Assembly: GCA_963704645.1 (NCBI GenBank)
Contig: OY969926.1
Span: 1,124,491 to 1,188,490, forward strand
From: an uncultured bacterium
GTDB lineage: Bacteria; Patescibacteriota; JACMRA01
Reading direction: 5' to 3'
Length of the DNA stretch: 64,000 bases
The notes below the pieces were generated by a model. The model was not told where the DNA came from. It did no database searches and saw only the letters and a list, made by a program, of their open reading frames with translations. Both the position numbers and the translations under genes were made by a program. This document shows positions 808 to 64,000 of this stretch, one piece after another; the stretch's first letter is position 1, and each line of letters starts with the position of its first letter.

Positions 808-3800
808 ATGTCTAGTATAAACACTAAACCTAATTCTGGTATTGAATCTAAACCATTTCAAAAAAATACAAGTAATAAAAATATATTTAACTTTCTTAAA
901 AAGAAACCATCTAAAATATTACAATTTAGTTTTATTGCTCTAGTGTTGGGTATAATTAGTTTAGCAGCCTATTCAAGTTTAAATAATGGAAGAAATGTAG
1001 CTTTTGCAGCAAACGACCCAGTAATAAGCTTAGCCTTATCTCAAAAGTCTGGAACAGCTCCTTTTGACTCGGGAACTTGTACAACCGGTGGAACAAGCTA
1101 CACACCAGGACAAGATGTTTGTGATGCAGATAATGTTGTTAGAACTTTAGATACTGTGGAGTATACTTGGACGGTGTCTGTTACTAGCGACCCTGCAAAT
1201 AATGTTACTGTGGTTCAGACATTGCCTTCACAGATGATTTGGAATTCAGCTACTCTTCCTGTATTTTGTAGAACAGGAGCAGGATTTAACCCCCAATCTA
1301 GCTACAGTGGCCAGACACTTACTTGTAATCTAGGGTCTTTTACAGCCGGAACTTCTACTACAACAAATTATGACCAGATATTTGCTAAGGTTAAAGGAGA
1401 TAATCTTAACTCTACAAATATATTGACAGCACCAATTACTGCCAATGCTGATTCTAATGTTACAGCCGGTACTAGGACAGCTAACTCAACTTCTAATACC
1501 TTAAGTCCATTGGCAATTAGTGCATCACCTAGATATGATTTAGTAGTTTTTACAACCAACCCTTCTGAATATTCAATAAGAAATAATCCTCAAGGAGATG
1601 TAGGCATAGTTGTGTCTGGAGTTGCCTCAATTAAATTACAAGGAAAAGGTGTTGAAATGCCCCAACAACCGTTTAGTTTTAACTTGGGACTTGAATATCT
1701 AACACCTGTATCATCTGGCCAAACTTATTCAGGCGCTAAACTATATGATTGGGACACAAATTTGCTTGGTTGCTCAGGGACAGTAAACACTGTAGGCGCA
1801 GCGGATTATCCATCAAAAAATTTAAACTGCACCCAAACCGCACCTGGCGACACTGTATCCCTAATAGTAAATAATCAAGACTTGTCTGGTACAAATGCAC
1901 CTGCTACAATTTTCGCCAATGTTGTAAACTTTCCTAACATAGACATATTTTCACAGAAAGTTCGTTTTTGGATACCCAAGACTGATTTTGATAAATTATC
2001 TGGAACAAATTTTCAGTTTAGAGCTGTAGGATCAAATTTTAATCCAGTGAGTATTTCTGGTGGTTCAAATAATGGCACTGGAATAGAATCAAATACCTTG
2101 AACAACGTAGGGAGTGTTACAACTTTTGGATATAATCCAGCAAACCCTCTCTCTGGTGTATATCAGCTATCAGATTTTGGAGGCCCTTCAGGAGATCTTA
2201 GAATATCTTCTGGCTTTCAGGTTTACACACTAAATGAATTAGGTAGAATAAGTGTAACACTTCTCAGTGCTGGATTGTTTAACACAGAAAATGCTTTAGA
2301 TTTATGTACAGCAATTGACCCAACAATAGGTAGAGTGGCCGGGGATGTAGCTCTTCCAGCAGACCCTCAAAACATATATGCAGATTTTTCTAATTCAATA
2401 ATTGAGTATGCGAATGTGAATGGATTTCCAGCCACCTCTTGTGACGACATAGGAACAACATGGGTTACTTCCCCAAACATTTCAAGCATAGGAGGTTTTG
2501 ATAATGTCACTCGAGTAAGAATTAAAAATATAAACAGACTTTCTCCTGGTATTCAGACTATTTTAAATATACCTTTTAGGTTTAACAATTCAGTACCGAA
2601 CTTAGATGTTTTAGTCAGTCCTTATCAAACAATAATTAAATCTGCTACTGCCACAGCTGGGAATTGGCAAATAGTCGGCCAAAGTAGAGAAAAAATAGTT
2701 GTTAAAATGATACCAAGGGTAAATTTTTCTATTTTAAATGATACTCCAAACAACAATACAACTACAGTACTTTTGAACAATCCAGCTGGTGGTAGTAACA
2801 CTGTAAAATACTCTTTAAAATATGGTAGTTTTTCCCAAACTTCAAATACAACTGACACCACTAGTATTTCATACAGACTTAGACTTCCAAAAGGCCAAAT
2901 TTATTTAGTAGGTTCAAGTAGGCAAGGAGTGCCTACAGTTATGGCAGCCGGGCAGCCCGCTGAGACAAGTAATTTATTTGAACCAAGTAGTATAATTACT
3001 AATCTAGATGGAACTCAAGATATTCAATGGGACATATCTAATCTGCCTCTAAATAATCCTCAAAGTACTTATCCGAACTTGACTTTTAAAACTGTTGTTT
3101 CAGCTTTTACACCAAATGGCTCCATATTAAGTAATTCTGTAACTACTTTGAGTCCAGATTATTTCAATTCCACTGTAAGCCCTGCTTGTGGATCAGGCTG
3201 TTCATTACCCCAATCCACAATAACCGTCCAAAACCTATCCTCCTTCGCGGTAGAACAAGTTCCAAATAATCCACTGATTGAAAAGAATAAAGATCTTGGT
3301 TTCACACTTCGTTATGGTAATTTGGATACACTTAACCCTGTAGCTTCCTCAACGCATATTAATGTATTTCCTTTTAGCGCTCAAACACCACCACGCTCTC
3401 CTGCCACCTCCTTTACAGGTAATCTTGTTTTCAAAGGTTTAGTTGTAGCTCCAAATAGTGCTAGTTCAGACCCTGCTGTGGTTAATACTAATGACAACAT
3501 AACAGGTGGTGCTGGTACTGTTCAATATACTAAAGCAGTAAGTAGTAGTAGTATAGCTTCTGATCCATGTGATGTTAGTAACAATCCTGCTGGCTCGCCC
3601 GTAAACACTAATCCAAGATGTGCTGGTGTAGATGGTTCTGTAATTGGCACAGGAAGCACTATCTGGTGTGATGCTTCTCTAGATCCTGCTACTCCTAGTA
3701 TTAAAAACTACTCAATCTTAAACAATGCTGGAGTTTATTCTGGAACCAATGGAGCAAACTCTTCAACTTGTCCTACTACTCTTTCTGAAGTAACGGCTTT

Positions 3801-48639: not shown

Positions 48640-51297
48640 ATGAATTTATCTTCAACAAAAATAAAAATTAGCAATTTCCAAGCTAGAGTAATTGCCCTAA
48701 CAGCTGCTTTATTCTGCATATTCTGTTTGGCTTTACTTAATATGCAATCTGCAAATATAAACAACGGAGACGTACTTGGAGTTGTTACTGGTAAAGAAGG
48801 TTATGCCTTAAGATACAGTAAAACAACTAATGGTGGAATTGTATTTGCAGGAAATAGCTTATGCTTAGCTGAAAATGTAGATTATGGAAGTTGCGGCACT
48901 TACACAAGTCTAGACAGCCAAAGTGTAGACCAAGATTTTTCTCCTAAAACCAATGGCACAGTAGCCAACTGGGAAAAGAACGGAGGATTTACAAATGTAA
49001 ACATTCCAGATAAAAGCCAAGTTTTATACGCTGAATTAATTTGGGGTGGAAATTATAAATATTTAGATAAAAGCATTCAAAACAATTTAGACAATGCAGT
49101 TAAATTAGAGCTTCCAAATGGGAAAGTTGAAAGTATTAAACCTGTTAAAGAAACTGCTGCTGAAGTTCAGGAAAGCCATAGTTACGTTAGAACTTCTGGC
49201 GATATTTCTGGCTTAATTGGTTCTTCCGGAAAAGGTAAATACAGCCTATCTGGTGTGCCAAGTGTTATGATAAAAGGCAACCCTTACAACAATTATGTTG
49301 GTTTTACTTTGGCTATTGTATATTATAACCAAGATGAACCAGCTAGAAACTTATCTTTGTTTACAGCTGCAGAACAAGTAGGACCAGACCAATTTACAAA
49401 CACCGCCGAAATCAAAGGTTTTGCCACACCAACAAGCGGTGCAGTTAATGGAAAATTGCTAGTTAGCGCCCAAGAAGGAGATTCAATGTATAACGGAGAT
49501 AGGCTAAAATTTGGTTCAAATACCAACAACTTGCAAGATTTACAAGGCCCAAATAACAAAGTAGATAACTTTTTTGCCTCACAAATTAATAATAATGATG
49601 GCTATTTAGATTCTACAGGTAGTTTTGGCAGCAAAAACCAAGCTTTAAATTCTAATAAGGTTGGAGCGCGACAAGGTTGGGATGTAACCGCTGTAAATAT
49701 TAGCAATCGTTTAACCAACAAGCAAACTTCCGCTTATGCTAAAGCTACAAGCACAGGAGACACCTACTTAATTAATGCACTTGGTATTCAAATTGAGGTA
49801 AATTCTGCTCAACCCAAGCTAAGTTTAGAGCTAGTATCTCAAACTGGCCAATGCAAAGAAGACATGGTAAATTTAAAAATTACAGCTGTAAATAATGGAA
49901 GGTCCGATAGTCAAAACAACTTTTTGTTAGATATTGCGCCTGATGGATTTGAAGTTGTAGATAAAAAAATTAGCATTAATGGCCAATCTTCAATATTTGA
50001 AGGAAACAGTGCCAAATTACCAAATCTAAGCTATCAACAGACTGCCTCAATTACTTATACTTTAAAAAATGTAGGTAACAAAACTAGTTTAAACAATGGA
50101 CCAACCTTTAGTTATGACTATGTAATGATGGATGGTGCTGCTCCAATTTCTGGAAAAATAGTTATTCCTACAGACAAAATTGATTTAAGCCAGAACTGCA
50201 AAGCGAATTTGCCACCACGCACAGAAGATGACAGTAGCATGGGCAAAATGAATAGTAACCAAAATATTGAAATTTTGAAAAATGATTCAGACGCAGAAGA
50301 AACACTAAGCTACAAAAATGTACAAATTAGTTTGCAGCCAAAAAATGGAACAGTAGAAATTAAAGATGGAAGTGTTATTTACACTCCAGCTAAAGACTAT
50401 ACTGGACTTGATACATTTAACTACAAAATATGTGATGTTGTAAAAAGTTGCGATGAGGCAACAGTAAACTTAACCGTTATAGACATTCAAGCTATAACAG
50501 ATTCAGAAAGTATGAATGTTGGGGAAATGAAGACAATTCAAGTTTTGGAAAACGATATTTTTAAAGCCGATGTCTACAATCCTAAATCTTTAGAAGTTGT
50601 TAAACAAGGTGTTGCTGGTCAGGCTGTGGTTGATATTGAAAAAAGCACAATAAACTATAAAGCAACTGCAACAGCTGCAGCTAGCGATGTTTTTGAATAC
50701 AAAATATGTTTGTTAAACAGCGGTTTTTGTTCCATTGCTGAAGTTAAAATTGGAATAGAAACAATTCCACCATTACCACCTGTAGCAAATTCTGACGATG
50801 TAACAACTCAGGAATCTAAGCCGGTTATTGTTGAAATTTTGAAGAATGACGTTGCTGGAGAAGGGGAATTAGTTGCTTCCACAATACAAGTAACCAAACC
50901 TAGTGAAAACGGAAGTGTTGAAGTTAATTTGCAATCTGGGGAAATTCAGTATAGTCCTAAAAGTGGATTTAGCGGGGTTGATACATTAGCCTACAAAGTT
51001 TGTAATCAAGCAGAATTATGCAGCACTACTGACGTAAAAATTACTGTTCAAGCCTTACCAATTGTTAAATCTGACACACAATCTTTACCAACAGCCAATA
51101 TTTTAACTCAACCTATTAAGGCCATTAACCAAGCACTAAAACCAATTCCATCTGTATTAGGTGTTTCAGAGTTAGTAAGAAGTGGTGGTAAAAATGTTTG
51201 GGTATCTGTAGCTTTTGGAGTTATTGGTGTAGTCGCAGCGGCAACTTTTGTCTGGCTAAGCTTACAACCAGAAAAGAAGTCTAAAAAAGCTGAGTAA
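48640..51297 (+). CDS. large surface protein with a DUF11/CARDB-like domain, three cadherin-like Ig repeats and a C-terminal TM anchor
   Basis: N-terminal signal/anchor. The pattern ILKNDxD...NGxVEI..G.IxYxPxxxFxGxDTFxYKxCD is repeated three times. The C-terminus is VWVSVAFGVIGVVAAATFVWL plus KKSKKAE. Confidence 0.85.
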   Translation: MNLSSTKIKISNFQARVIALTAALFCIFCLALLNMQSANINNGDVLGVVTGKEGYALRYSKTTNGGIVFAGNSLCLAENVDYGSCGTYTSLDSQSVDQDFSPKTNGTVANWEKNGGFTNVNIPDKSQVLYAELIWGGNYKYLDKSIQNNLDNAVKLELPNGKVESIKPVKETAAEVQESHSYVRTSGDISGLIGSSGKGKYSLSGVPSVMIKGNPYNNYVGFTLAIVYYNQDEPARNLSLFTAAEQVGPDQFTNTAEIKGFATPTSGAVNGKLLVSAQEGDSMYNGDRLKFGSNTNNLQDLQGPNNKVDNFFASQINNNDGYLDSTGSFGSKNQALNSNKVGARQGWDVTAVNISNRLTNKQTSAYAKATSTGDTYLINALGIQIEVNSAQPKLSLELVSQTGQCKEDMVNLKITAVNNGRSDSQNNFLLDIAPDGFEVVDKKISINGQSSIFEGNSAKLPNLSYQQTASITYTLKNVGNKTSLNNGPTFSYDYVMMDGAAPISGKIVIPTDKIDLSQNCKANLPPRTEDDSSMGKMNSNQNIEILKNDSDAEETLSYKNVQISLQPKNGTVEIKDGSVIYTPAKDYTGLDTFNYKICDVVKSCDEATVNLTVIDIQAITDSESMNVGEMKTIQVLENDIFKADVYNPKSLEVVKQGVAGQAVVDIEKSTINYKATATAAASDVFEYKICLLNSGFCSIAEVKIGIETIPPLPPVANSDDVTTQESKPVIVEILKNDVAGEGELVASTIQVTKPSENGSVEVNLQSGEIQYSPKSGFSGVDTLAYKVCNQAELCSTTDVKITVQALPIVKSDTQSLPTANILTQPIKAINQALKPIPSVLGVSELVRSGGKNVWVSVAFGVIGVVAAATFVWLSLQPEKKSKKAE

Positions 51298-54660: not shown

Positions 54661-57600
54661 ATGTTTTTTAAAAAAATTAAAAGCTTTGATTGGAAAAAAA
54701 CTTTTAATAGAATATTTAAATCCAAGAATAAACCTTCTTCTAAGGATGTTTATTTTGTTTCTAAAAAACAATCCACTAACCCTAATTTGAAAAATAGATT
54801 AAAATTTTTTATAGTAAAATATAGGTGGATAATTATTTTTGTTGCTGCAGTAATTGTTATAGGAACAATAGCTAACGCTGTTTTGCAATATCAAAGAATA
54901 GCTAAAGCAAACGCACCTACTATTACCTCTATCACACCCAATTCTAGTTCTATACTTGGTGGAGCAGAGGTTACTATTAATGGAACTAACTTTTCCCAGG
55001 GTGGACCCCAAAGAATTATTACAATTACAAATCCAGGAAGTACAATTACTAACTATGAGGGTAACTTTAATTTAGATACAGCAAGTTTGATAAGTGCGAA
55101 TAAATTAAGATCTGATTGTGGTGATATAAGAATTAAAGATTCTGATGGAAATACCGATTTAAACTATTGGATTGATGGACAATGTAATTCTAGTTCAACT
55201 GTTGTTTGGTTTAAGAAACCCAGCCTTCCAACTGGAAATAGCACTGTGGTTTTAAAGTACAACAACCCAAGTTTAACCAGCCTTAGTAATATTGCTAATT
55301 TTAGTTTTGGAAGTGTTTTAGCTGGAACCAATAACAAACTTTGGTTAAGTGCTAATAATATTACAACATCTACGGCTTTTACGCCTAGTTTTGAAAATGT
55401 GGATGGGGTAACAGTTAACGGAGGAGATTTAAGCAATACTGGAACTGCCAATAGCTGGATTAATGGAGCAACCTCTGTTCAAAGCATTAGCAGCGGCAAT
55501 GGCTATGTATCAAGCACTATTCTAGAAAATAACACTTACAGAATGTTTGGTTTGTCTAAGGGAAATAGTAATTCAAGTTATACAGATATTGATTTTGCCA
55601 TGTACCCAGCTAACGACGGAAATATATACGTCTACGAAGGTGGTAGTGGTATTACAAGTTTAGGGACTTATTCAAACGGCGATGTATTAAGTGTGGAGGC
55701 TAGTGGAGATAAAATTTTATATAAGAAAAATGGAATTACTCTTTATGTAAGCGGGGCTACTTTGACATCAAATAGTTACCCATTACTTTTTGACAGTTCT
55801 TTATATTCAGCTGGTGCCACTTTGAAAGATGTGAAAATTTGTATTGGTATTTGTGATGGATCTAGCATACAAACTTGGAATGACAGAAGTGGAAATGGAA
55901 ATAATGCTACTCAAACTACAGTCGCAAATAGGCCGCAAATAAAAACCAATATTCAGAATGGAAAGCCTGCGATTCAGTTTGACGGAAATAATGACAGGAT
56001 GCAATTTACTCCGCTGACACTTTCTAGTGATAACGCCTTTTACACTGCATTTACCCCTAGGCCAAGCTCTGACACGTATGGAGCTGTTTTTTCTGAAAAT
56101 AATATTAGAGGTTTTTACTATCGTGGATCAACCAGATTAATGAGTTATTATTATAGTTCTTCTGATCACCATAATACAACACCAATAATAGAAAATTTGG
56201 CCAATGTTTATGGTTCAAATAGTGTTTTTGGAAATGTAGCATATTACCTTAACGGATCAAGCAATGGTACAAGCTCTGCATCTACTGGTTTTAGTGCTGA
56301 TACTATTGGTGATGATGATTCTAGCGAAACATTTAAGGGTGATATACTGGAATTATTTTCATTTAACGCTTCTTTACCTGAGCAAGATCGTCAAAGTGTA
56401 GAAACTTATCTAAACTCAAAATATAATCTTTATGGCACAAACCCAACGCTAAGTATTGCCAGTGAAAGCATTACAACAGCATCTATTAGTTTTGGTGGAA
56501 ATGTTGGAACTAATCTGCAATATATTTCCCCTACACAGGTTAAAATTACAGTCCCAGCTTCTACATTACCTGGTAATAAAAATGGCTCTGTAGACGTTGT
56601 TCTTGTTAACCCCGACGGTAGTAGTGTTACTTTAACTAATGGATTTAGTTATGGCGATCCAATTATCACTTCTATCACTCCAAACAGTGGAAATACACTT
56701 GGAGGGTATGAAGTAACAATAAATGGAACAAATTTTGCGAAAAGTGGAATAGAAAGAGCAGTTGCAATAAATAATCCTGGATTAAGCATTAATAACTATG
56801 AAGGAAAATTAACCTTAGACACCGCAAGCCTTATAACTGCAGGGAAATTAAGATCTGATTGCGGGGATATTAGAATTAAAGATAACAATGGAACTACAGA
56901 CCTAGGTTATTGGTTAGAAAGTGGATGTAATACTTCTAGCACTATAATTTGGTTTAAAAAAACTAGCCTACCAAACGGTAGTAGTAATATTTACTTGAAG
57001 TATGGCCTGCCTGAATTAACCAGTCAAAGTAATATTTCTAATGTATCTTTTGCTTCTGTATTGGCGGGTAGCAATGTAAAGTTTAGAATGAGTGCTGAAA
57101 ATGCCTTAACTGCCACTGAATTTACACCATCTTTTACCGATATTGTTGGTACTTCTGTTAACAATGGTACAATTGCAAGCACGGCTAGTACTGGCTGGGG
57201 TAATAGTGGACTTATTTCTAGTCAAACTATAGACTCTGGAAATGGTTATGTTTCAGCAAAATTGATCGACACCAATTCTGAAAGAATGTTTGGACTAGCA
57301 AAAAATAATACATCTGCACATTACAATGATATTGACTTTGCCATATACCCTTCTTCAGATGGTAATTTAAGGGTGTATGAGTCAGGAAACTTTATAACTA
57401 GCATAGGAACTTACACAGCTAACGATATTTTAAGTGTTGAGGCTACTGGCGATAAAATTGTTTACAAGAAAAATGGCCTTGTTTTATATACAAGTTCAAT
57501 TACTTTAACCTCAGCTAATTATCCATTAACCCTAGATACTTCACTTTATAATACAGGTTCAACATTAAGCGACATTAAAATGTGTGTTGGAATTTGTAAT

Positions 57601-60600
57601 TTATCTAGCATTCAGACACTTACTGACATTTCATCGAACGCTAATAATGCCACTCAAAATACTGCGGGCAGCAGACCTACAATATACTCAAGTGCGTTTA
57701 GTGGAAAACCAGCAATTCGTTTTGATGGTGTAAATGATACTTTATACCTATCAAATAACGCGGCAGTTGCTCAATATATAACAGTTTTTAAATCAAATGT
57801 AGCTAATTTCAACAATTATGGATCGGTTTTAGAAAATGTTTCAGGCGGTAGAATGGGTCTTTTTGAACCTGGAACAAACCAATTTCACGGCGGCCCATAT
57901 CCTTTAGCTGTAAGAAAAAATGGTACAAGTTTAACCTCACCATTTAATCTTGGAGGTATTACATTACCAATGGTTATGACACTAAACACTGCCAACCCTA
58001 TTAGTGTGAGACCAATGCAACTTGGAGCAATGGAAAACAGCTATTTTGCCAACATAGACATTGCCGAAATAATTGCCTTTGGAACTGCAAATAGTAATTC
58101 TGAAGTTCAGTCTTTAGAGAATTATTTAAATTTAAAATATAATATCTCAAGTACAAACCCTACACTTACCATTGGCTCTGAATCTGGCAATGCTGGAAAT
58201 GGAGGCCTAACTTTTGGAGGAAACTCTGCAACAAATATTCAATACATTTCTTCTGCCGAAATTAAAGCAAAAGTTCCAGCATCATCATTGCCAGGCAGTA
58301 AAAGTGGTTCTGTAGATGTAGTATTTACCAATCCTAATGGAATTAGTACCACTTTAATCAATGGTTTTAGTTATTTATCGCCAAGTATTTCTTCTATTAC
58401 ACCAAATTCCAGTGCCACACTTGGAGGAATAGAGGTAACTATAAACGGAGCAAATTTTGCCAATAGTGGCTATAAAAAACTTTTAACCATTACAAATTCT
58501 GGTGGCAGTGCTAGTAATGTTAAAACTTCTGTTTTGGTAGATACAGCAAGTTTAATTTCTGCAGGAAAAATGCGTAATGATTGCGGCGATCTTCGTATAA
58601 AAAATAATGATGAAAGCATAAATTTGAATTATTGGATAGAACAAGGTTGCAACACTAGCTCTACTTTAATTCACATTTCCATACCAAGTTTATCTGTGGG
58701 AGAAAATATCTTTTACTTGAAATATGGCGACTCTGTGCTTGTTTCTGAAAGTAGCAGAGACGCTGTATATCCTGTTTTTGCAACAAATTCTAGTTCTTTA
58801 AAACAATGGATAAAGTCTACAGACGGTACCAGTACCACAACAAACGGAGCTACTGTAACCAGTATTGAAGATAAATCTGGAAATAATAATAATTGGAGTG
58901 TTCAAAGTGGTTATTCTGGTGCAACTTATAATCCAACCGGGTTGAACGGTAAACCAAGCTTGTCTTTCAATGGTTCAAACAGTTACCAGTTTACAAATAG
59001 GTTAACTGATATTCGTACTGTGATAATGTTTTGGAACGAGACAGCTGCAGGAAGCGGATCTGGTTCGTTTATACTTGGAGATACCAGTAGTTACGACTTC
59101 CATAGAAGTGGAAATAATTATCTTGCAAACTGTTACAATTCTTATGTTTGCAATGGAACTTTTAGAATAAACGGCACAGGTGTAGCGCCAACTTCAGCTC
59201 AAGCAGTTTATAATTCTCCTGTAATTTTATCTATAATTACAAATGGTGGCACTGCGGCGGCCAATACATTTGATAAAGATAGAACATATCATGGTCCGTT
59301 TATTGGTCAATTTGGTGAGAGTATGATATTTAACCAGTCACTTTCAGTTGATGATGTTGCAAGTTTGGAACAATATATTAGTGCAAAATATAGCTTAAAC
59401 AGCACTTACAATTTGGTCTTAGGAGGTGAATCTGGAAGCGGAAACGGAAGTATTAGCTTTGGAGGAAACCCTGCAACTAATATTCAATTTATTTCATCAA
59501 ATCAGCTTAAAGCTACTGTGCCAGCTTCTACACTAAGTGGAAATAAAACTGGCTCTGTTGATGTAACAGTTACCAACCCTGATGGAAGCAATGGAACTTT
59601 CAGCAATGGTTTTACTTATGTAGCCCCAGTTGTAACAAGTATTTCTCCAAATAGTGGGCCAAATATAGGTGGAACTTTTGTAACTATTTCTGGTAGTAAT
59701 TTTAGCAACCTTAGAAGTGCAGGTGCATTAATTTCAAGACAAATTACAATTACAAACCCTGGTAGTACAATTACAAATTATGAAGGAAACGTTACTTTAG
59801 ATACAGCTTCATTAATATCAGCAAATAAATTAAGAAGTGATTGTGGAGATATTAGAGTAAAAGATTCTGATGGAAATACAGATTTAAACTATTGGATAGA
59901 TGGAGATTGCAATAGCGCCAACACTGTTATTTGGTTTAAGAAGCCTAGCCTTTTAGCAGATAATAATACTGTAATTTTAAAGTATGGAGATTCAAATTTA
60001 ACTACTCAAAGTAATATAAATAATTTTAGTTTTGGTTCAGTTTTAACTTCAACAAATAATAAGCTTTGGGTAAGTGCAAACTCTGGCGTAGGAACTTCAA
60101 TTGATGGAGGAGCTATTTCAAGTTGGATGGATAGAAGTGGAAATGGAAATAATGCAACCCAAATTACAACAACTAACCAACCGACACTTAGAAATAAAGT
60201 TCAAAATGGAAAACCTGCAGTTAGATTTGATGGTGTAAATGACTCAATTACTTTTGGAGATCTGGAAATTTCAAACACAAAAAACATCAGTTTCATTACA
60301 GTTTTCAAAACACCAAGAATTCGACAGTATGATGGTATTTTTACTAAAAGTTATTCGGCTTATGGGGCTTATTTAGGTGGAGATTACGCTGGAAATAGTG
60401 GAAAAGTTGAATTCTTTGTTGATTCTAGTAGGCCTGGAGGGGCTTTTGCGCTTTCAAATTCTGCTTTAAACAATAATTTAGGGAATTTAGTAATTGGAAC
60501 GTACGATGGTAATTTGGCAAATGAAAATTTAAAAATGTTTGTAAACGGAAGTCAACAGACAAAAACTGGTAACAGTACTGTAAATATTCCAGATTCATCA

Positions 60601-63600
60601 GACAAATTGACTTTAGGTGCTGAAGAAGGCTCCTCATCTTCTGGGTATAATTTAGAAGGTGATATTATCGAAAGCTTGGCTTTTAATAGCACCCTGTCTG
60701 ATACTGATCGTCAGAATCTTGAAACTTATTTAAATACTAAATATAATCTTTATAACACAACAACTCTTCCCACTGCAGCTTTAGACAGTGCCGAGACAAA
60801 TTTCTCAATTAGCATAAATGGTAATAATTTAGATAACGCCAAGTTTATTTCATCAACTAGTTTGACAGGCTATGTTCCAGCTGGAACAGGAACGCAAAGT
60901 GTAACAGTAACAAACTCAGATGGCACAAACGGAACTCTTTCAAATGGTTTTACCTATGGTGTAAACGGTGTACCAAATCCAATTTTTGATCTTGCCATTA
61001 ACAATACGCAAAACGAAAGTGTGCCACTGGCTTGGACAGCACCTTCTAATAATGGGTCGGCAATTACCGATTATATAATAAAATATAGTACAGACAACTT
61101 CGCTACTGAAACAATAGTAAATGATGGGGTAAACGCGAATACAAACTATACAATAACTGGTTTAACACCTGGGACTAGTTATAAATTTAAAGTAATTTCA
61201 GTGAATGGAATTGGAAATAGTATTGATTCAAATGTGGTTACCCTATCAAGTTTTGACTGCGATACCAACCTAAATGGAGCTGATTTTACACCTGCAAATG
61301 GTGCAACTTTAACTGGGCGTTATTGTAACATTGGCACTTTTACAATTTCTAGTGGGTTTACTGTAAGTACTGCAGTAGAGTCAAAAGTTAAAATCTATGC
61401 TCAAAATGCAAATATATTGGGAACACTAAGCGCCAACTCCAAAGGTTTCCTAGGGGGATTGCAAACAGGTAATGCTTCAGGCAACGGTTTAGGTGCTGGA
61501 GGTGGAGTTTATGCTGGAAATGGAGGTGCTGGAGGTGGCTATGGTGGAAATGGTGGAAGATATAGTAATGCTTCTGGCGGTATTGCTTATGGTTCTATAA
61601 CAGAACCTACAGATCTTGGAAGTGGTGGTTCAACTTATGGAAATTCTATAAGCTATCCTGGTGGAAATGGTGGAGGATCTATTAAATTAAATATTACAAA
61701 TACTTTAACTAATAATGGAAGTATTGCTGTAAATGGAGATAATTCTGCAAGTTATGGTGGTGGTGGAAGTGGAGGTAGTATCTGGATTACTAGTAATACT
61801 TTAGCTGGTACTGGTACTTTAACTGCCAATGGAGGAAATAATCCAAGTGGTTCCAACGGTGGTGGAAGCGGTGGTAGAATTGCTTTATACTATAACACTA
61901 AGACTTTATCTGGAAGTGTAAGTGCTATTGGCGGAACTGGAGGACAAAATGGTGGAGCTGGAACTGTCTATGAGAAAGTAAGCTCTCAAACATACGGAAG
62001 CCTAAAGATAGATAATGGTAACATAAGTGGATCCGATAGCGCAGCAACAATAATTAATTCAAGTTACCTAGTTTTAAACTCACTAGATAATCTTATTGTT
62101 ACTAATAAAGCCAATGCTGCTTTAAATAAAGATTTAACGATTATAAATACAAGTTTAGATATTAATGTTGGAACAACTTTTACAGTTAACAACACCCTAA
62201 CTTCAAATAACCTTTCAACGCTAACCAACTCTGGAACTTTCAATTTTTCAACCACGGGTAATTGGATAAGCAATAGTCTTTCAAGCGTTACAATTTCAGG
62301 GCTTTTAACCCTAAATACTTACATGCTTCCAACTATAAACACTGTCACTATTGAAAGTGGTGGCAACTTAACATCAAGCCAAAATACTACATTAGCCAAC
62401 ACCCCATATAAAAAAATTGATCTAAATATCAATAACCTAACTGTTAATAGTGGTGGGCAAATTCAAACCAACTCCAAAGGTTTCCTAGGGGGATTGCAAA
62501 CAGGTAATGCTTCAGGCAACGGTTTAGGTGCTGGAGGTGGAGTTTATGCTGGAAATGGAGGTGCTGGAGGTGGCTATGGTGGAAATGGTGGAAGATATAG
62601 TAATGCTTCTGGCGGTATTGCTTATGGTTCTATAACAGAACCTACAGATCTTGGAAGTGGTGGTTCAACTTATGGAAATTCTATAAGCTATCCTGGTGGA
62701 AATGGTGGAGGATCTATTAAATTAAATATTACAAATACTTTAACTAATAATGGAAGTATTGCTGTAAATGGAGATAATTCTGCAAGTTATGGTGGTGGTG
62801 GAAGTGGAGGTAGTATCTGGATTACTAGTAATACTTTAGCTGGTACTGGTACTTTAACTGCCAATGGAGGAAATAATCCAAGTGGTTCCAACGGTGGTGG
62901 AAGCGGTGGTAGAATTGCTTTATACTATAACACTAAGACTTTATCTGGAAGTGTAAGTGCTATTGGCGGAACTGGAGGACAAAATGGTGGAGCTGGAACT
63001 GTCTATGAGAAAGTTGGAAATGATGAATTTGGAAGTCTTACAATTAGCAGTAGTGGAACATTGGGTGCAGCCACTGAGATTAATAATACTTTTTATCCGG
63101 TCAACACTTTTAAAAATCTAACTGTTACTACAGGGTCAGTTTTAATTCAAAATAAAGCTTTAACTTTACAAAATATTGTATTTACTATTCCTACAAATTC
63201 ATATTTTTACCAAGACCAGCCCCTAACCTATACAAATATCCTTTCTGATATTAACATTTCAGGTTATTGGGAATCTAAATCTAGCCCTACAAATACCTCT
63301 CAAGCCAATCTAAATGTAAATAGTGGTGGAAACTTAACTACAAGCCAAAACACCACAGATGCAGCAAATTTAAATTACAAAATAGATTTAACTTTCAATA
63401 ACATTACTGTTAGCAGCGGGGGTCAAATTCAAACTAATGAGAAAGGTTTTCAAGGAGGATATAATGGAAACACTTCATTTTCAGGATATGGACCAGGTGG
63501 AGGTGTTACTGCTTCAAGCAACGGTGGAGGAGGAGGTGGCTATGGTGGAACAGGAGGCAAGTTCAATGTTACAACTGGTGGAAGCACATATGGTTCCATT

Positions 63601-64000
63601 AGCGAGCCATCTGACCTGGGAAGCGGCGGAGCTACATATTCATTTACTTCTTCGTATCCAGGTGGGAATGGTGGAGGGGCAATTAAATTAAGCGCTAATG
63701 CAACTTTTACAAACAATGGTACAATTTCTGCAAATGGGGGAAATTCTCCAAACTATGGTGGTGGTGGAAGTGGTGGAAGTATCTGGATTACTAGTAACAC
63801 TTTAGCTGGAACAGGAAATACAACTGCCAATGGAGGAAATAATACAAGCGGTTCCAATGGCGGAGGAGGAGGTGGTAGAATTGCTTTATACTATAACAAC
63901 AAGACTTTATCTGGGATTGTAACTGCAAATGGAGGGACTGGACAGCAAAATGGTGGAGCTGGGACTATTTACGAACCAAATACACCTCAAACTGGTTTGA
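54661..64000 (+). CDS. giant surface protein, 3' end outside window (>3,110 aa): [IPT/TIG - DUF2341-like - jelly-roll - LamG - IPT] x4, FN3, then Gly-rich beta-solenoid repeats
   Basis: Absent from the ORF track but open in frame 1 from ATG 54661 (TAG at 54613-54615 upstream) to the last base. I checked the frame at 56641, 59620 and 61432. N-terminal TM WIIIFVAAVIVIGTIANAVL. Modules start at about 54913, 56656, 58378 and 59620. DUF2341-like CGDIRIKDSDGNTDLNYWI. LamG-like W.DRSGNGNNATQ...GKPAI.FDG. FN3 at about 60975-61250. Confidence 0.9.
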   Translation, partial: MFFKKIKSFDWKKTFNRIFKSKNKPSSKDVYFVSKKQSTNPNLKNRLKFFIVKYRWIIIFVAAVIVIGTIANAVLQYQRIAKANAPTITSITPNSSSILGGAEVTINGTNFSQGGPQRIITITNPGSTITNYEGNFNLDTASLISANKLRSDCGDIRIKDSDGNTDLNYWIDGQCNSSSTVVWFKKPSLPTGNSTVVLKYNNPSLTSLSNIANFSFGSVLAGTNNKLWLSANNITTSTAFTPSFENVDGVTVNGGDLSNTGTANSWINGATSVQSISSGNGYVSSTILENNTYRMFGLSKGNSNSSYTDIDFAMYPANDGNIYVYEGGSGITSLGTYSNGDVLSVEASGDKILYKKNGITLYVSGATLTSNSYPLLFDSSLYSAGATLKDVKICIGICDGSSIQTWNDRSGNGNNATQTTVANRPQIKTNIQNGKPAIQFDGNNDRMQFTPLTLSSDNAFYTAFTPRPSSDTYGAVFSENNIRGFYYRGSTRLMSYYYSSSDHHNTTPIIENLANVYGSNSVFGNVAYYLNGSSNGTSSASTGFSADTIGDDDSSETFKGDILELFSFNASLPEQDRQSVETYLNSKYNLYGTNPTLSIASESITTASISFGGNVGTNLQYISPTQVKITVPASTLPGNKNGSVDVVLVNPDGSSVTLTNGFSYGDPIITSITPNSGNTLGGYEVTINGTNFAKSGIERAVAINNPGLSINNYEGKLTLDTASLITAGKLRSDCGDIRIKDNNGTTDLGYWLESGCNTSSTIIWFKKTSLPNGSSNIYLKYGLPELTSQSNISNVSFASVLAGSNVKFRMSAENALTATEFTPSFTDIVGTSVNNGTIASTASTGWGNSGLISSQTIDSGNGYVSAKLIDTNSERMFGLAKNNTSAHYNDIDFAIYPSSDGNLRVYESGNFITSIGTYTANDILSVEATGDKIVYKKNGLVLYTSSITLTSANYPLTLDTSLYNTGSTLSDIKMCVGICNLSSIQTLTDISSNANNATQNTAGSRPTIYSSAFSGKPAIRFDGVNDTLYLSNNAAVAQYITVFKSNVANFNNYGSVLENVSGGRMGLFEPGTNQFHGGPYPLAVRKNGTSLTSPFNLGGITLPMVMTLNTANPISVRPMQLGAMENSYFANIDIAEIIAFGTANSNSEVQSLENYLNLKYNISSTNPTLTIGSESGNAGNGGLTFGGNSATNIQYISSAEIKAKVPASSLPGSKSGSVDVVFTNPNGISTTLINGFSYLSPSISSITPNSSATLGGIEVTINGANFANSGYKKLLTITNSGGSASNVKTSVLVDTASLISAGKMRNDCGDLRIKNNDESINLNYWIEQGCNTSSTLIHISIPSLSVGENIFYLKYGDSVLVSESSRDAVYPVFATNSSSLKQWIKSTDGTSTTTNGATVTSIEDKSGNNNNWSVQSGYSGATYNPTGLNGKPSLSFNGSNSYQFTNRLTDIRTVIMFWNETAAGSGSGSFILGDTSSYDFHRSGNNYLANCYNSYVCNGTFRINGTGVAPTSAQAVYNSPVILSIITNGGTAAANTFDKDRTYHGPFIGQFGESMIFNQSLSVDDVASLEQYISAKYSLNSTYNLVLGGESGSGNGSISFGGNPATNIQFISSNQLKATVPASTLSGNKTGSVDVTVTNPDGSNGTFSNGFTYVAPVVTSISPNSGPNIGGTFVTISGSNFSNLRSAGALISRQITITNPGSTITNYEGNVTLDTASLISANKLRSDCGDIRVKDSDGNTDLNYWIDGDCNSANTVIWFKKPSLLADNNTVILKYGDSNLTTQSNINNFSFGSVLTSTNNKLWVSANSGVGTSIDGGAISSWMDRSGNGNNATQITTTNQPTLRNKVQNGKPAVRFDGVNDSITFGDLEISNTKNISFITVFKTPRIRQYDGIFTKSYSAYGAYLGGDYAGNSGKVEFFVDSSRPGGAFALSNSALNNNLGNLVIGTYDGNLANENLKMFVNGSQQTKTGNSTVNIPDSSDKLTLGAEEGSSSSGYNLEGDIIESLAFNSTLSDTDRQNLETYLNTKYNLYNTTTLPTAALDSAETNFSISINGNNLDNAKFISSTSLTGYVPAGTGTQSVTVTNSDGTNGTLSNGFTYGVNGVPNPIFDLAINNTQNESVPLAWTAPSNNGSAITDYIIKYSTDNFATETIVNDGVNANTNYTITGLTPGTSYKFKVISVNGIGNSIDSNVVTLSSFDCDTNLNGADFTPANGATLTGRYCNIGTFTISSGFTVSTAVESKVKIYAQNANILGTLSANSKGFLGGLQTGNASGNGLGAGGGVYAGNGGAGGGYGGNGGRYSNASGGIAYGSITEPTDLGSGGSTYGNSISYPGGNGGGSIKLNITNTLTNNGSIAVNGDNSASYGGGGSGGSIWITSNTLAGTGTLTANGGNNPSGSNGGGSGGRIALYYNTKTLSGSVSAIGGTGGQNGGAGTVYEKVSSQTYGSLKIDNGNISGSDSAATIINSSYLVLNSLDNLIVTNKANAALNKDLTIINTSLDINVGTTFTVNNTLTSNNLSTLTNSGTFNFSTTGNWISNSLSSVTISGLLTLNTYMLPTINTVTIESGGNLTSSQNTTLANTPYKKIDLNINNLTVNSGGQIQTNSKGFLGGLQTGNASGNGLGAGGGVYAGNGGAGGGYGGNGGRYSNASGGIAYGSITEPTDLGSGGSTYGNSISYPGGNGGGSIKLNITNTLTNNGSIAVNGDNSASYGGGGSGGSIWITSNTLAGTGTLTANGGNNPSGSNGGGSGGRIALYYNTKTLSGSVSAIGGTGGQNGGAGTVYEKVGNDEFGSLTISSSGTLGAATEINNTFYPVNTFKNLTVTTGSVLIQNKALTLQNIVFTIPTNSYFYQDQPLTYTNILSDINISGYWESKSSPTNTSQANLNVNSGGNLTTSQNTTDAANLNYKIDLTFNNITVSSGGQIQTNEKGFQGGYNGNTSFSGYGPGGGVTASSNGGGGGGYGGTGGKFNVTTGGSTYGSISEPSDLGSGGATYSFTSSYPGGNGGGAIKLSANATFTNNGTISANGGNSPNYGGGGSGGSIWITSNTLAGTGNTTANGGNNTSGSNGGGGGGRIALYYNNKTLSGIVTANGGTGQQNGGAGTIYEPNTPQTGL
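61433..61979 (+). repeat. 547-bp direct repeat, copy 1 (Gly-rich solenoid unit)
   Basis: Base-for-base identical to 62468-63014 by direct comparison. Confidence 0.95.
62468..63014 (+). repeat. 547-bp direct repeat, copy 2
   Basis: The offset of 1,035 bp (345 codons) keeps the frame. A diverged third unit starts near 63437. Confidence 0.95.

What the first reader, a model, noticed from the sequence alone, without database searches (positions are those of the whole stretch)
54661..64000. Unlisted giant ORF (>3,110 codons, runs off the window) with a fourfold IPT-DUF2341-LamG super-module and a Gly-rich solenoid
The ORF track has no + strand entry here, yet frame 1 is open from ATG 54661 to the last base. 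After an N-terminal TM anchor, the protein repeats a unit of about 420-580 aa four times. Each unit contains an IPT/TIG domain, a DUF2341-like domain (CGDIRIKDSDGNTDLNYW..VWFKKPSL), a jelly-roll segment, a LamG-like domain (W.DRSGNGNNATQ..GKPA..FDG...YLN.KYNL) and a second IPT domain. Next come an FN3 domain and at least three ~180-aa Gly-rich units (GGGGSGGSIWITSNTLAGTG..GGGSGGRIALYYN). It is probably a very large adhesin-type or envelope-forming protein. If the organism is an epibiont, it is a candidate host-attachment factor.
Basis: partly seen in the sequence, partly recalled or inferred. Interest (0 to 1): 0.6.

Follow-up and report, generated by a model that had tools for sequence, protein, structure and literature searches.

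The report
Giant lectin-studded surface fibre gene
This is a real 5,815-residue cell-surface fibre protein of a tiny-genome (Patescibacteria) bacterium, carrying four fast-evolving sugar-binding-type heads plugged sideways into its stalk, so it is probably an adhesin; the kind is known but this build is unusual.

Summary
The open frame is real. It starts at window 54661, runs off the window, and ends 2,702 codons later in the 1.27-Mb genome: 5,815 aa, 611 kDa, TAA stop.

Order of parts: basic tail and one hydrophobic segment; four super-modules; FN3; three glycine-rich beta-solenoid units; about 30 Cys-paired Ig-like domains, including at least 10 SdrD-B-type domains; a conserved C-terminus with no anchor motif.

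- Each super-module is one IPT/TIG domain split after strand B by an inserted DUF2341-(jelly roll)-LamG head. It is not two IPT domains.
- The extra jelly roll is in modules 1 and 2 only.
- The Gly-rich repeat period is 345/322 aa, not about 180.

Among orthologues the LamG heads are 28-44% identical and the scaffold is 55-82%. Head and solenoid copy numbers vary.

The solenoid unit is a very widespread repeat (6,994 clusters) with no Pfam, NCBIfam or PDB match.

In all three genomes with a true orthologue, a WxL-like gene and a WxLIP (DUF916)-like gene follow directly.

RpoB places the genome in Patescibacteria.

Best reading: a giant, strain-variable adhesin fibre. Its function is inferred, not shown. 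It is a new variant of a known kind and of moderate interest.

The parts
54661..64000 (+). First 3,113 codons of a 5,815-codon gene (genome 1179151-1196598). The remaining 2,702 codons lie beyond the window's end.
   Evidence: The exact protein is present in public collections.
54661..54894 (+). Lys-rich tail of 46 aa, then a single hydrophobic segment (aa 47-78), followed by A-K-A-N-A just before the first TIG. This is a signal-anchor or a long cleavable signal peptide.
   Evidence: it is the only hydrophobic segment in the protein. Seven of the eight relatives inspected have the same layout, with an A-x-A or similar small-residue motif; P0016 shows no hydrophobic segment at the threshold used.
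54913..56658 (+). Super-module 1 (aa 85-666): TIG N-half 85-114, DUF2341, extra jelly roll 226-395, LamG-like 396-600, TIG C-half 605-666.
   Evidence: AF2 model: pLDDT 79, pTM 0.73. ConA-like/SPRY/galectin/laminin-LG fold matches.
56659..58377 (+). Super-module 2 (aa 667-1239), same composition as module 1, 50-66% identical to it.
58378..59622 (+). Super-module 3 (aa 1240-1654): split TIG with DUF2341 and a divergent LamG-like head, without the extra jelly roll.
59623..60975 (+). Super-module 4 (aa 1655-2105): split TIG with DUF2341 and a LamG head (Pfam Laminin_G_3, 33.2 bits against a cut-off of 27.6).
60982..61242 (+). FN3 domain (aa 2108-2194).
   Evidence: 53.4 bits.
61246..63996 (+). 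Three Gly-rich beta-solenoid units (aa 2196-2598, 2599-2920, 2921-3112). The first has a disulfide-capped N-terminus (C2200/C2222).
   Evidence: AF2 model: all-beta solenoid, pTM 0.77. Only weak matches to right-handed beta-helices. No Pfam, NCBIfam or PDB sequence match. 6,994 representative clusters elsewhere.
61433..61973 (+). Copy 1 of a perfect in-frame direct DNA repeat of about 540 nt; copy 2 is at 62468-63008, offset 1,035 nt.
62468..63008 (+). Copy 2 of the perfect repeat.

Best explanation
The gene encodes a 611-kDa extracellular fibre of a Patescibacteria (CPR) bacterium that most likely works as a multivalent, strain-variable adhesin.

Export and anchoring. The protein is exported through Sec by its single N-terminal hydrophobic segment. 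That segment either stays as a membrane anchor or is cut at the conserved A-x-A (inferred).

The head-bearing part. Four IPT/TIG domains form a short stalk. Each one is interrupted after strand B by an inserted head made of DUF2341, in two cases an extra jelly roll, and a LamG-type concanavalin-like domain. The four lectin-fold heads therefore project sideways from the stalk (shown at sequence-profile level; the geometry is inferred).

The rod. After the heads come an FN3 domain and three rigid glycine-rich beta-solenoid segments. They are followed by about 30 disulfide-paired Ig-like domains, many of SdrD-B type with D-x-N-x-N-G calcium-site motifs. From typical domain sizes this gives a rod on the order of 100-150 nm (inferred).

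Binding specificity. The LamG heads are the ligand-specificity determinants, probably for glycans or surface proteins of a host or partner cell. They evolve far faster than the scaffold. The numbers of heads and of solenoid units change by recombination between internal repeats (variation shown; the mechanism is inferred from the perfect repeat of about 540 nt).

Partners. A WxL-like protein and a DUF916/WxLIP-like membrane protein are encoded immediately downstream and probably help hold or organise the fibre on the peptidoglycan (inferred from conserved gene order only).
For: Real, intact gene:
- Open for 5,815 codons.
- The exact protein is in public collections.
- Co-linear orthologues of 4,220-5,559 aa exist in other metagenomes and MAGs.

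Extracellular:
- One N-terminal hydrophobic segment with A-x-A or a similar small-residue motif, in seven of the eight relatives inspected.
- 52 Cys arranged as 26 pairs, about one pair per domain.
- pI 4.7.

Domains:
- DUF2341 x4, TIG, FN3.
- SdrD_B in at least 10 stretches (273.8 bits), plus SpaA and CarboxypepD_reg.
- 13 D-x-[ND]-x-[ND]-G motifs.

Split TIG:
- N-half plus C-half spliced in silico give one end-to-end TIG match (53-62 bits) in all four modules.
- The halves alone cover profile positions 1-26 and 33-84.
- The natural junction gives two separate stretches.
- The AF2 model shows 2 + 6 strands at the two ends, both with pLDDT of about 90.

Lectin-fold heads:
- Laminin_G_3 passes its cut-off in module 4.
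- The other three heads are homologous to it.
- Foldseek gives 107 PDB hits at E <= 1e-3 to laminin LG, SPRY, galectins, alginate lyase and sialidase lectin domains.

Variable heads on a conserved scaffold:
- LamG regions show 28-44% best identity among orthologues, against 55-82% for every other region.
- Head number is 2-6 and solenoid units 1-4 among relatives.
- A perfect DNA repeat of about 540 nt lies inside the solenoid region.

Context:
- The order giant -> dn1 -> dn2 is contiguous in the own genome, a same-genus genome and a genome of another family. The gaps are 20 nt and 1 nt in this genome.
- dn2 passes the WxLIP_PGBD cut-off in 2 of 3 orthologues, and dn1 hits WxL just below its cut-off in 3 of 3.

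Organism: RpoB's nearest named relatives are 'Patescibacteria group bacterium' at 73, 60 and 59% identity, with one row at 71% labelled Thermales.

Literature:
- Giant DUF2341/FhaB-annotated proteins are common in Patescibacteria and were proposed as adhesins (PMC11809585).
- Epibiotic growth of a cultivated Patescibacteria member needs multiple adhesins (PMC10633639).
Against: - There is no direct evidence of binding, localisation or expression.
- Orientation is unresolved. The heads sit next to the N-terminal hydrophobic segment and the stalk is C-terminal. That suits an MSCRAMM-like protein held by its C-terminus, yet the C-terminus has no TM segment, sortase motif or detected WxL domain.
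- ConA-like folds and beta-helices also occur in glycan-cleaving enzymes, so a lytic role is not excluded.
- One orthologue locus (P0005) is followed by tatA/tatC instead of dn1/dn2.
- The LamG cores are modelled with low confidence.
Confidence: 0.62

Rival explanations
1. The protein is a glycan-degrading or cell-wall-attacking enzyme fibre. On this reading the beta-solenoid units and/or the ConA-like heads are catalytic (lyase or hydrolase, as in tailspike depolymerases, pectate lyases, and the GH16/PL7 jelly rolls). The protein would then serve to breach or feed on a host envelope rather than only to adhere.
For: - Fold matches of the solenoid include tailspikes, GH110, GH87 and polysaccharide lyases.
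- Fold matches of the module include an alginate lyase, a xyloglucan hydrolase and a putative glycosyl hydrolase.
Against: - All solenoid matches are weak (best E 6e-3, TM <= 0.28) and generic to the fold class.
- No catalytic family is hit in Pfam, NCBIfam or PDB sequence searches.
- Conserved columns of the unit are almost all Gly, with a few structural residues.
- The most variable part is the LamG head, which is typical of binding sites and not of active sites.
Confidence: 0.12
2. The protein is a structural envelope or spacing fibre (S-layer-like coat, glycocalyx scaffold or cell-cell spacer) with no specific ligand.
For: - Its size and rod-like build.
- The genome devotes 15% of its length to ORFs of at least 1,000 aa, many with the same N-terminal layout.
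Against: - It is patchy. True orthologues occur in only 2 of 60 related genomes searched, and the same-genus copy is only 63% identical in its C-terminal domain. Essential coat proteins are normally kept.
- There is no SLH or S-layer family hit.
- Hypervariable lectin-fold heads argue for specific recognition.
Confidence: 0.1
3. The giant protein is the payload of a WxL/WxLIP-type display machine. On this reading dn2 acts as a membrane chaperone and dn1 as a WxL subunit, as in the Enterococcus Elr pilus, and the giant is carried or anchored by them through its conserved C-terminal domains. The N-terminal hydrophobic segment would then be only a cleaved signal peptide.
For: - The trio is contiguous in three genomes of two families.
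- dn2 scores 29.0 and 28.4 bits on WxLIP_PGBD, above the cut-off of 27.3.
- dn1 has a C-terminal WxL-like domain with a variable N-terminal payload, and it shares an SdrD_B domain with the giant.
- The head-N/stalk-C domain order suits C-terminal tethering.
- The C-terminal 216-300 aa are 56-69% conserved and end in ...DLVQK in five of the six closest proteins (this one and four orthologues).
- The genome's second WxLIP-like gene also lies beside a large gene (1,947 aa) with a sub-threshold SdrD_B match.
Against: - WxL is below Pfam's cut-off in all three dn1 proteins (17.6-23.6 bits against 25).
- Only the first W-x-L motif is kept.
- No DUF3324 hit, no small WxL pilin gene and no WxL domain in the giant.
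- One orthologue locus lacks the pair.
- The published screen found the system only in Bacillota (bioRxiv 10.64898/2026.10.17.759780).
Confidence: 0.15
4. The ORF is an assembly artefact or a decaying pseudogene that happens to stay open.
For: A perfect repeat of about 540 nt could mislead an assembler about the number of solenoid units.
Against: - 5,815 codons without a stop in a 33% GC genome.
- Co-linear orthologues exist from independent samples, with conserved ends.
- The contig is a single 1.27-Mb sequence with no N in the gene.
- At most, the copy number of one unit is uncertain.
Confidence: 0.01

Closest known systems
Giant DUF2341- and/or FhaB-annotated proteins of Patescibacteria (PMC11809585: of 149 proteins over 4,000 aa, 82 carried these domains), and the public orthologue MEI6728037.1 'MAG: DUF2341 domain-containing protein [bacterium]'
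   Same: Same phylum, same size class, same DUF2341 signature, and the same proposed role (adhesion or host interaction). P0003 and P0005 are co-linear, with 58-60% identity in the best local alignment of the N-terminal 2,116 aa and 63-82% in individual scaffold segments.
   Different: That paper only counted domains. The split-TIG nesting, the hypervariable LamG heads, the solenoid unit family and the WxL-like/WxLIP-like neighbours were not described there.
RTX-type and other long adhesins with ligand-binding domains inserted into 'split' Ig-like stalk domains
   Same: A rod of Ig-like domains in which some domains are interrupted by a laterally displayed binding module; Ca-dependent stiffening; very large size.
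   Different: - No RTX repeats, no type I secretion signal, and no outer membrane in this organism.
- Export is by an N-terminal hydrophobic segment.
- The split domain is IPT/TIG, and the insert always starts with DUF2341.
Staphylococcal Sdr/MSCRAMM adhesins (SdrD; PDB chain 10ps_A was hit by the neighbour's SdrD_B domain)
   Same: SdrD-B-type calcium-binding stalk domains C-terminal to the binding region.
   Different: No LPXTG sortase signal, no SD repeats, no DEv-IgG A-region. Here each stalk domain has a Cys pair, and the protein is about four times longer.
WxL / WxLIP (DUF916-DUF3324) surface clusters of Bacillota (PMC1534035, PMC10599100, bioRxiv 10.64898/2026.10.17.759780)
   Same: The layout of the two downstream genes: a large protein with a variable N-terminal payload and a C-terminal WxL-like domain, followed by a DUF916-type protein with a C-terminal TM helix.
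   Different: - WxL is below Pfam's cut-off and only one W-x-L motif is kept.
- No DUF3324 hit, no small WxL pilin and no LPXTG partner.
- The organism is Patescibacteria, outside the reported range.
- The giant protein itself has no WxL domain.
Right-handed parallel beta-helix adhesins (Caldicellulosiruptor tapirins, FHA/TpsA, Ag43)
   Same: Fold class of the Gly-rich units according to the AF2 model, and the only class of PDB matches.
   Different: The matches are not significant (E >= 6e-3, TM <= 0.26). The unit has its own motif set (GGGYGG, YGSIxEPxDLGSGG, GGNGGGxIKL, GGGSGGSIW, GGGGRIALYY, GGAGTxY) and no sequence link to any solved structure.

Membership tests
IPT/TIG domain (PF01833) | A full-length match to the profile as one domain. 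| tested here: met
   Met only after in-silico splicing of the two halves: profile positions 1-81 to 1-84 of 84, 53-62 bits, in all four modules. The halves alone cover positions 1-26 and 33-84. The domain is therefore present but split by an insertion.
DUF2341 (PF10102) | Score above Pfam's gathering cut-off. | tested here: met
   160.7 bits in total, four stretches, each 43-49 bits against a cut-off of 23.4.
LamG / Laminin_G_3 (PF13385), concanavalin A-like lectin fold | Score above Pfam's cut-off, and a ConA-like jelly-roll fold. | tested here: met
   - Module 4 scores 33.2 bits against 27.6.
- Modules 1-3 are not detected by Pfam but are homologous to module 4 (E 2e-37, 2.5e-20, 3e-6).
- The module model gives 107 ConA-like PDB matches, though the LamG core of module 1 is modelled with low confidence.
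LamG / lectin function | A carbohydrate- or protein-ligand-binding site (Ca site, binding rim). | not testable with these tools
   No model coordinates are exposed, and the binding loops fall in the low-confidence, hypervariable part.
SdrD B-like domain (PF17210) | Score above the cut-off, and calcium-site motifs. | tested here: met
   273.8 bits, 10 stretches; 13 D-x-[ND]-x-[ND]-G motifs. Calcium binding itself was not tested.
MSCRAMM / sortase-anchored adhesin | A C-terminal LPXTG-type sorting signal with a hydrophobic segment and a basic tail. | tested here: not met
   The protein ends ...GIFKITPGLVQK, with no C-terminal hydrophobic segment. The only one is at aa 47-78.
RTX adhesin | RTX nonapeptide repeats and a C-terminal T1SS signal. 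| tested here: not met
   No RTX/HemolysinCabind hit in Pfam on either half.
Two-partner-secretion FhaB/TpsA | An N-terminal TPS domain and haemagglutinin repeats. | tested here: not met
   No TPS or Fil_haemagg hit. Only a weak fold resemblance of the solenoid to the FHA secretion domain (E 0.18).
Type IV pilus-associated DUF2341 protein (PilY1-like; PMC4858521) | A class III (prepilin) signal, or location in a T4P locus. | tested here: not met
   The N-terminus is a 46-aa basic tail plus a 20-30-aa hydrophobic segment, not a short prepilin leader. The neighbours are a PBP2 transpeptidase, a cadherin/Big_9 surface protein and the WxL-like pair.
WxL domain (PF13731), for neighbour dn1 | [quoted passage not shown] | tested here: inconclusive
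   - Scores are 21.6, 23.6 and 17.6 bits against a cut-off of 25 in three orthologues, covering profile positions 62-205 of 214 at best.
- The first motif GW[TS][LV] is kept; the second is replaced by [IT][FY]TII.
- The domain is C-terminal.
WxLIP (DUF916 PGBD, DUF3324, TM helix), for neighbour dn2 | PF06030 above its cut-off, a DUF3324 domain, and a C-terminal TM helix. | tested here: inconclusive
   - PF06030 scores 29.0 and 28.4 bits (above the cut-off of 27.3) and 22.8 bits in the third orthologue.
- No DUF3324 hit.
- A C-terminal hydrophobic stretch followed by a basic tail is visible in the sequence.
ALK/LTK-type glycine-rich domain (Pfam Gly_rich) | Sequence similarity to the family or to solved ALK/LTK structures. 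| tested here: not met
   No Pfam hit at E <= 1 for the unit. A profile of 12 units finds no PDB chain at E <= 10.

The most novel reading that the evidence does not exclude
The giant fibre, the WxL-like protein and the DUF916/WxLIP-like membrane protein form one machine. That would be a chaperone-and-WxL display or assembly system of the kind just described for the Enterococcus Elr pilus, here operating in Patescibacteria, outside the Bacillota to which it is reported to be confined. It would carry a 5,815-aa payload whose conserved C-terminal domains dock onto it.
Probability: 0.15. Interest if true: 0.75.

Novelty: new variant of a known kind. Interest (0 to 1): 0.45.

Why it matters
All cultivated Patescibacteria live attached to other microbes, and how they recognise hosts is largely unknown. 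This gene offers a concrete, testable candidate:
- four separately evolving lectin-fold heads that can be expressed one by one and screened against glycans or candidate host cells;
- a conserved scaffold that can serve as a marker to find the family in other genomes.

Two by-products have wider use:
- The TIG(N-half)-DUF2341-X-TIG(C-half) cassette looks like a general socket for side-mounting different heads. Relatives carry Kelch or RCC1 family hits (Pfam annotation) alongside the cassette. This gives DUF2341 a structural context.
- The Gly-rich solenoid unit is a very common repeat (about 7,000 clusters at 50% identity, from Planctomycetota to marine invertebrates) that has no Pfam or NCBIfam model and no solved relative.

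The WxL-like/WxLIP-like neighbours, if confirmed, would widen the known range of that Gram-positive surface system.

Tried and rejected
- A self-BLAST of the whole protein returned only the self-hit. It was replaced by tiling.
- The genome-contig scan with the C-terminal profile found only two loci.
- The listing of cluster members gave no organism names, so taxonomy was taken from RpoB homologues.
- Model coordinates are not exposed. I therefore could not check contacts between the two TIG halves, nor assign the Foldseek hits to the extra jelly roll or to the LamG.
There is no read-level check of the perfect repeat and no expression evidence.
- Foldseek of the solenoid against PDB and BFVD gave only weak, generic beta-helix or Gly-rich hits.
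- Profile searches of the solenoid, of dn1's C-terminal domain and of dn2 against PDB sequences gave nothing useful beyond SdrD.
- NCBIfam gave only CoaZ_rpt_PGGG on the TIG C-halves and a DUF11 repeat in dn1.
- The promoter and terminator scans are not above chance.
- Code 25 (SR1/Gracilibacteria) was considered because one relative is labelled SR1. It was rejected because RpoB and 35 ORFs of at least 1,000 aa are intact under table 11.
- A prepilin or T4P-tip reading of DUF2341 was rejected on the N-terminus and the gene neighbourhood.
Full report
OBSERVATION

Frame 1 of the + strand is open from ATG 54661 to the last base of the window, 3,113 codons.

The window is C1:1124491-1188490 of a single-contig genome of 1,272,640 bp. 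In that genome the frame runs on to a TAA at 1196598, giving 5,815 aa, 611 kDa and pI 4.7, with no N in the gene. ATG 54661 is the first start codon after an in-frame stop 16 codons upstream. The exact 5,815-aa sequence is already present in NCBI/ENA-derived protein collections. It is therefore a called gene, not a hidden one.

ORGANISM

RpoB of this genome is 91% identical to one unnamed cluster. Among named relatives it is 73, 60 and 59% identical to proteins labelled 'Patescibacteria group bacterium', with one row at 71% labelled Thermales. The next tier, at about 47%, includes Candidatus Doudnabacteria.

RpoB and 35 ORFs of at least 1,000 aa are intact under table 11, so the standard code applies. 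Those 35 ORFs make up 15% of the genome, and many of them start with the same 'basic tail plus one hydrophobic segment' layout.

ANATOMY

Tiling the protein against itself, together with Pfam and NCBIfam, gives this order:
- aa 1-46: Lys-rich tail.
- aa 47-78: the only hydrophobic segment in the protein, followed by AKANA.
- aa 85-2105: four super-modules of 582, 573, 415 and 451 aa.
- aa 2108-2194: FN3.
- From aa 2196, 2599 and 2921: three Gly-rich units.
- aa 3113-3690: five unannotated Cys-paired domains of about 115 aa.
- aa 3691-4760: an array of SdrD-B-like domains (at least 10 stretches, 273.8 bits).
- To the end: longer units with SpaA and CarboxypepD_reg-like hits.
- The protein ends ...DLPSGIFKITPGLVQK, with no hydrophobic segment and no sortase-type signal.

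The 52 cysteines fall into 26 pairs, roughly one per domain. Thirteen D-x-[ND]-x-[ND]-G motifs mark the SdrD-B-type calcium sites.

THE SUPER-MODULE IS ONE SPLIT IPT/TIG DOMAIN

In every module Pfam matched the 'first IPT' only to the first 26-45 positions of the TIG profile, and the 'second IPT' only to positions 28-84.

To test this, I joined the 30-aa N-half of each module to its 62-aa C-half and scored the result:
- All four spliced sequences match the profile end to end as a single stretch: positions 1-81 to 1-84 of 84, 53-62 bits.
- The N-half alone gives positions 1-26 (32.4 bits) and the C-half alone gives 33-84 (21.5 bits).
- The natural junction, C-half of one module followed by the N-half of the next, gives two separate stretches.

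The AF2 model of module 1 (pLDDT 79, pTM 0.73) has two strands at its N-terminal end and six at its C-terminal end, both with pLDDT near 90. That fits a reunited Ig-like domain.

Each module is therefore a TIG stalk domain interrupted after strand B by an inserted head:
- DUF2341 in all four modules.
- An extra all-beta domain of about 170 aa in modules 1 and 2 only.
- A LamG-type domain in all four.

The LamG evidence is as follows. Laminin_G_3 passes its cut-off in module 4 (33.2 against 27.6 bits). The other three heads align with it over their full length (E 2e-37, 2.5e-20, 3e-6) but share only 25-37% identity. Foldseek of the module model against the PDB gives 107 hits at E <= 1e-3. These are laminin LG, SPRY, galectins, an alginate lyase and trans-sialidase lectin domains, that is, the concanavalin-like fold.

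More distant giant relatives keep the same TIG-N-half/DUF2341 ... TIG-C-half frame. In their precomputed Pfam annotation they also carry Kelch or RCC1 family hits, although I did not map where those domains lie relative to the cassette. This suggests a general side-mounting socket.

THE GLY-RICH UNITS

The repeat period is 345 and then 322 aa. Each unit has a Gly-rich core of about 190 aa with conserved motifs: KGF/Y, GPGxG, GGGYGGxGG, YGSIxEPxDLGSGG, GGNGGGxIKL, GGGSGGSIW, GGGGRIALYY and GGAGTxY. A Gly-poor linker of 130-155 aa follows in units 1 and 2.

Units 1 and 2 share a base-perfect stretch of about 540 nt (61433-61973 = 62468-63008), offset by 1,035 nt. This points to a very recent duplication or gene conversion.

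An AF2 model built on 12 aligned units is an all-beta solenoid (pTM 0.77). The most glycine-rich 70 residues are modelled with low confidence. Structure matches are weak:
- PDB matches are all right-handed parallel beta-helices (tapirin, FHA, Ag43, tailspikes, ice-binding proteins), but none is significant (best E 6e-3, TM <= 0.26).
- BFVD matches are equally weak.

No Pfam, NCBIfam or PDB sequence or profile match exists.

Even so, an exhaustive HMMER search finds 6,994 representative clusters (1,330 at E <= 1e-30). They typically carry 4-13 copies in proteins of 1,000-6,500 aa. Named examples come from these groups:
- Planctomycetota, some with a C-terminal dockerin;
- Verrucomicrobiota, Binatia and Eisenbacteria;
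- Peregrinibacteria and Paceibacterota;
- Bdellovibrio;
- large G8-domain proteins of Mya arenaria, Patiria miniata and Mactra antiquata.

The sources call these proteins only 'beta strand repeat-containing' or 'right-handed parallel beta-helix repeat-containing'. A second gene of this genome (971957-977164, minus strand) carries three perfectly repeated 300-aa units of the same kind plus a fourth, diverged one.

RELATIVES AND EVOLUTION

Co-linear orthologues of 4,220-5,559 aa (P0002, P0003, P0005, P0008, P0011) and more distant ones (P0004, P0006, P0007, P0016) share the whole order of parts. They differ in copy numbers, with 2-6 heads and 1-4 solenoid units.

Their C-terminal 300 aa are 56-65% identical to ours, with four of them at 63-65%. 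Five of the six closest proteins, this one and four orthologues, end in ...DLVQK. The stop in this genome is therefore the true end of the protein.

A window-by-window comparison shows the LamG regions at 28-44% best identity, against 55-82% for every other region.

Among 60 related genomes:
- Only a same-genus genome and one from another family of the same order have a true orthologue. Both are 63% identical in the C-terminal domain. The same-genus genome is labelled 'Bdellovibrionales' at NCBI, which is probably a mislabel.
- Five family members have distant matches.
- None of the 34 genomes from other orders of the phylum has a match.

The gene is thus lineage-restricted, patchy and fast-evolving.

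NEIGHBOURHOOD

Upstream lie a PBP2-type transpeptidase and an 885-aa Big_9/cadherin-like surface protein with a C-terminal TM segment.

Downstream come two genes. The first, dn1, starts 20 nt after the giant gene, and the second, dn2, starts 1 nt after dn1.
- dn1 (1,023 aa) has a signal peptide, a variable Cys-rich N-terminal part, an SdrD_B domain and a C-terminal WxL-like domain.
- dn2 (394 aa) has a DUF916/WxLIP_PGBD domain and a C-terminal hydrophobic segment.

The order giant -> dn1 -> dn2 is kept in the same-genus genome and in the other-family genome, although the upstream genes differ. In two more distant genomes (G002, G019) dn1 and dn2 remain an adjacent pair, on other contigs than the giant-like gene. 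One metagenomic orthologue is followed by tatA/tatC instead.

The domain assignments are borderline:
- WxL scores 21.6, 23.6 and 17.6 bits against a cut-off of 25, and only the first W-x-L motif is conserved.
- WxLIP_PGBD scores 29.0, 28.4 and 22.8 bits against a cut-off of 27.3.
- There is no DUF3324 hit.

The genome's second WxLIP-like gene (24.2 bits) also sits beside a large gene (1,947 aa) with a sub-threshold SdrD_B match (27.9 against 29.7 bits).

In Bacillota such pairs bind peptidoglycan and display adhesins (PMC1534035, PMC10599100). A 2026 preprint shows that they assemble a pilus by donor-strand exchange, and reports the system only in Bacillota after a RefSeq-wide screen (10.64898/2026.10.17.759780). 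The only paper in the held library that contains both 'WxL' and 'Patescibacteria' is unrelated.

INTERPRETATION

Shown here:
- A real, intact, conserved gene for a protein of about 0.6 MDa with one export segment.
- Four split TIG domains carrying lectin-fold heads.
- Three solenoid units and a long SdrD-B-type stalk.
- Heads that are hypervariable on a conserved scaffold, with variable copy numbers.
- A conserved gene trio with WxL-like and WxLIP-like neighbours.

Inferred:
- The protein is a surface fibre of about 100-150 nm.
- The LamG heads bind glycans or proteins of a partner cell.
- The internal repeats drive copy-number change.
- dn1 and dn2 help attach or organise the fibre.

Which end faces the cell is open. 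The long hydrophobic segment (20-30 aa) suggests an uncleaved anchor. The conserved A-x-A after it, and the MSCRAMM-like order of heads first and stalk last, suggest cleavage and C-terminal tethering.

The literature already notes that giant DUF2341/FhaB-annotated proteins are frequent in Patescibacteria and may be adhesins (PMC11809585). It also shows that a cultivated member needs several adhesins for epibiotic growth (PMC10633639). DUF2341 has been linked to pilus-tip adhesins (PMC4858521), but neither the N-terminus nor the locus here looks pilus-related.

VERDICT

The adhesin reading is the best supported, at about 0.6. The domain grammar needed correcting. The case is a new variant of a known kind, of moderate interest. 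Two by-products deserve their own follow-up: the unnamed, very widespread Gly-rich solenoid unit, and a possible WxL-type system outside Bacillota.

Noticed in passing
Genome 1196619-1200876, just beyond the window's end (L010:21-4278): A large protein with a C-terminal WxL-like domain, followed 1 nt later by a DUF916/WxLIP_PGBD-like membrane protein. This layout is the minimal 'WxL chaperone-pilin operon' reported as confined to Bacillota, here in a Patescibacteria genome. The pair is conserved in at least four related genomes.
   Followed up: partly
window 61246-63996, and genome 971957-977164 (minus strand): The Gly-rich solenoid core of about 190 aa is a very widespread repeat: 6,994 clusters at 50% identity, spanning bacterial phyla from Planctomycetota to Patescibacteria plus G8-domain giants of clams and a starfish. 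It has no Pfam or NCBIfam model and no solved relative. A second gene of this genome carries three base-perfect 300-aa units of it plus a fourth, diverged one.
   Followed up: partly
window 61433-61973 and 62468-63008: A base-perfect in-frame direct repeat of about 540 nt inside the giant gene.
   Followed up: partly
whole genome (G000): 35 ORFs of at least 1,000 aa occupy 15% of a 1.27-Mb genome. Several share the N-terminal 'basic tail plus one hydrophobic segment' layout. Three families of near-identical N-termini occur: MNKDKLNFLK... in three copies, with a fourth related (MTNKEQKTLIHNWK...); MSQPGQINNSK... in two copies; and others.
   Followed up: no
L015 (JBILXY010000023.1) = G001: The MAG that GTDB places in the same genus as this Patescibacteria genome is labelled 'Bdellovibrionales bacterium' at NCBI. 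This is probably a taxonomic mislabel of the bin.
   Followed up: no
window 48640-51297 (+): An 885-aa surface protein with DUF11, two Big_9/cadherin-like domains and a C-terminal TM anchor. It lies two genes upstream of the giant gene.
   Followed up: no
genome 751748-762428 (L022): A second surface-gene cluster: a WxLIP-like gene (24.2 bits, below the cut-off), a 1,947-aa protein with a sub-threshold SdrD_B match (27.9 against 29.7 bits), and a 726-aa protein related to dn1's N-terminal part.
   Followed up: partly
genome 1202320-1203771 (L010:5722-7173): A 483-aa secreted protein with about eight repeats of a 'LYQSVxGxDNxxYTR' motif, which looks like a beta-propeller or tachylectin-type repeat. 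It has no Pfam hit.
   Followed up: no
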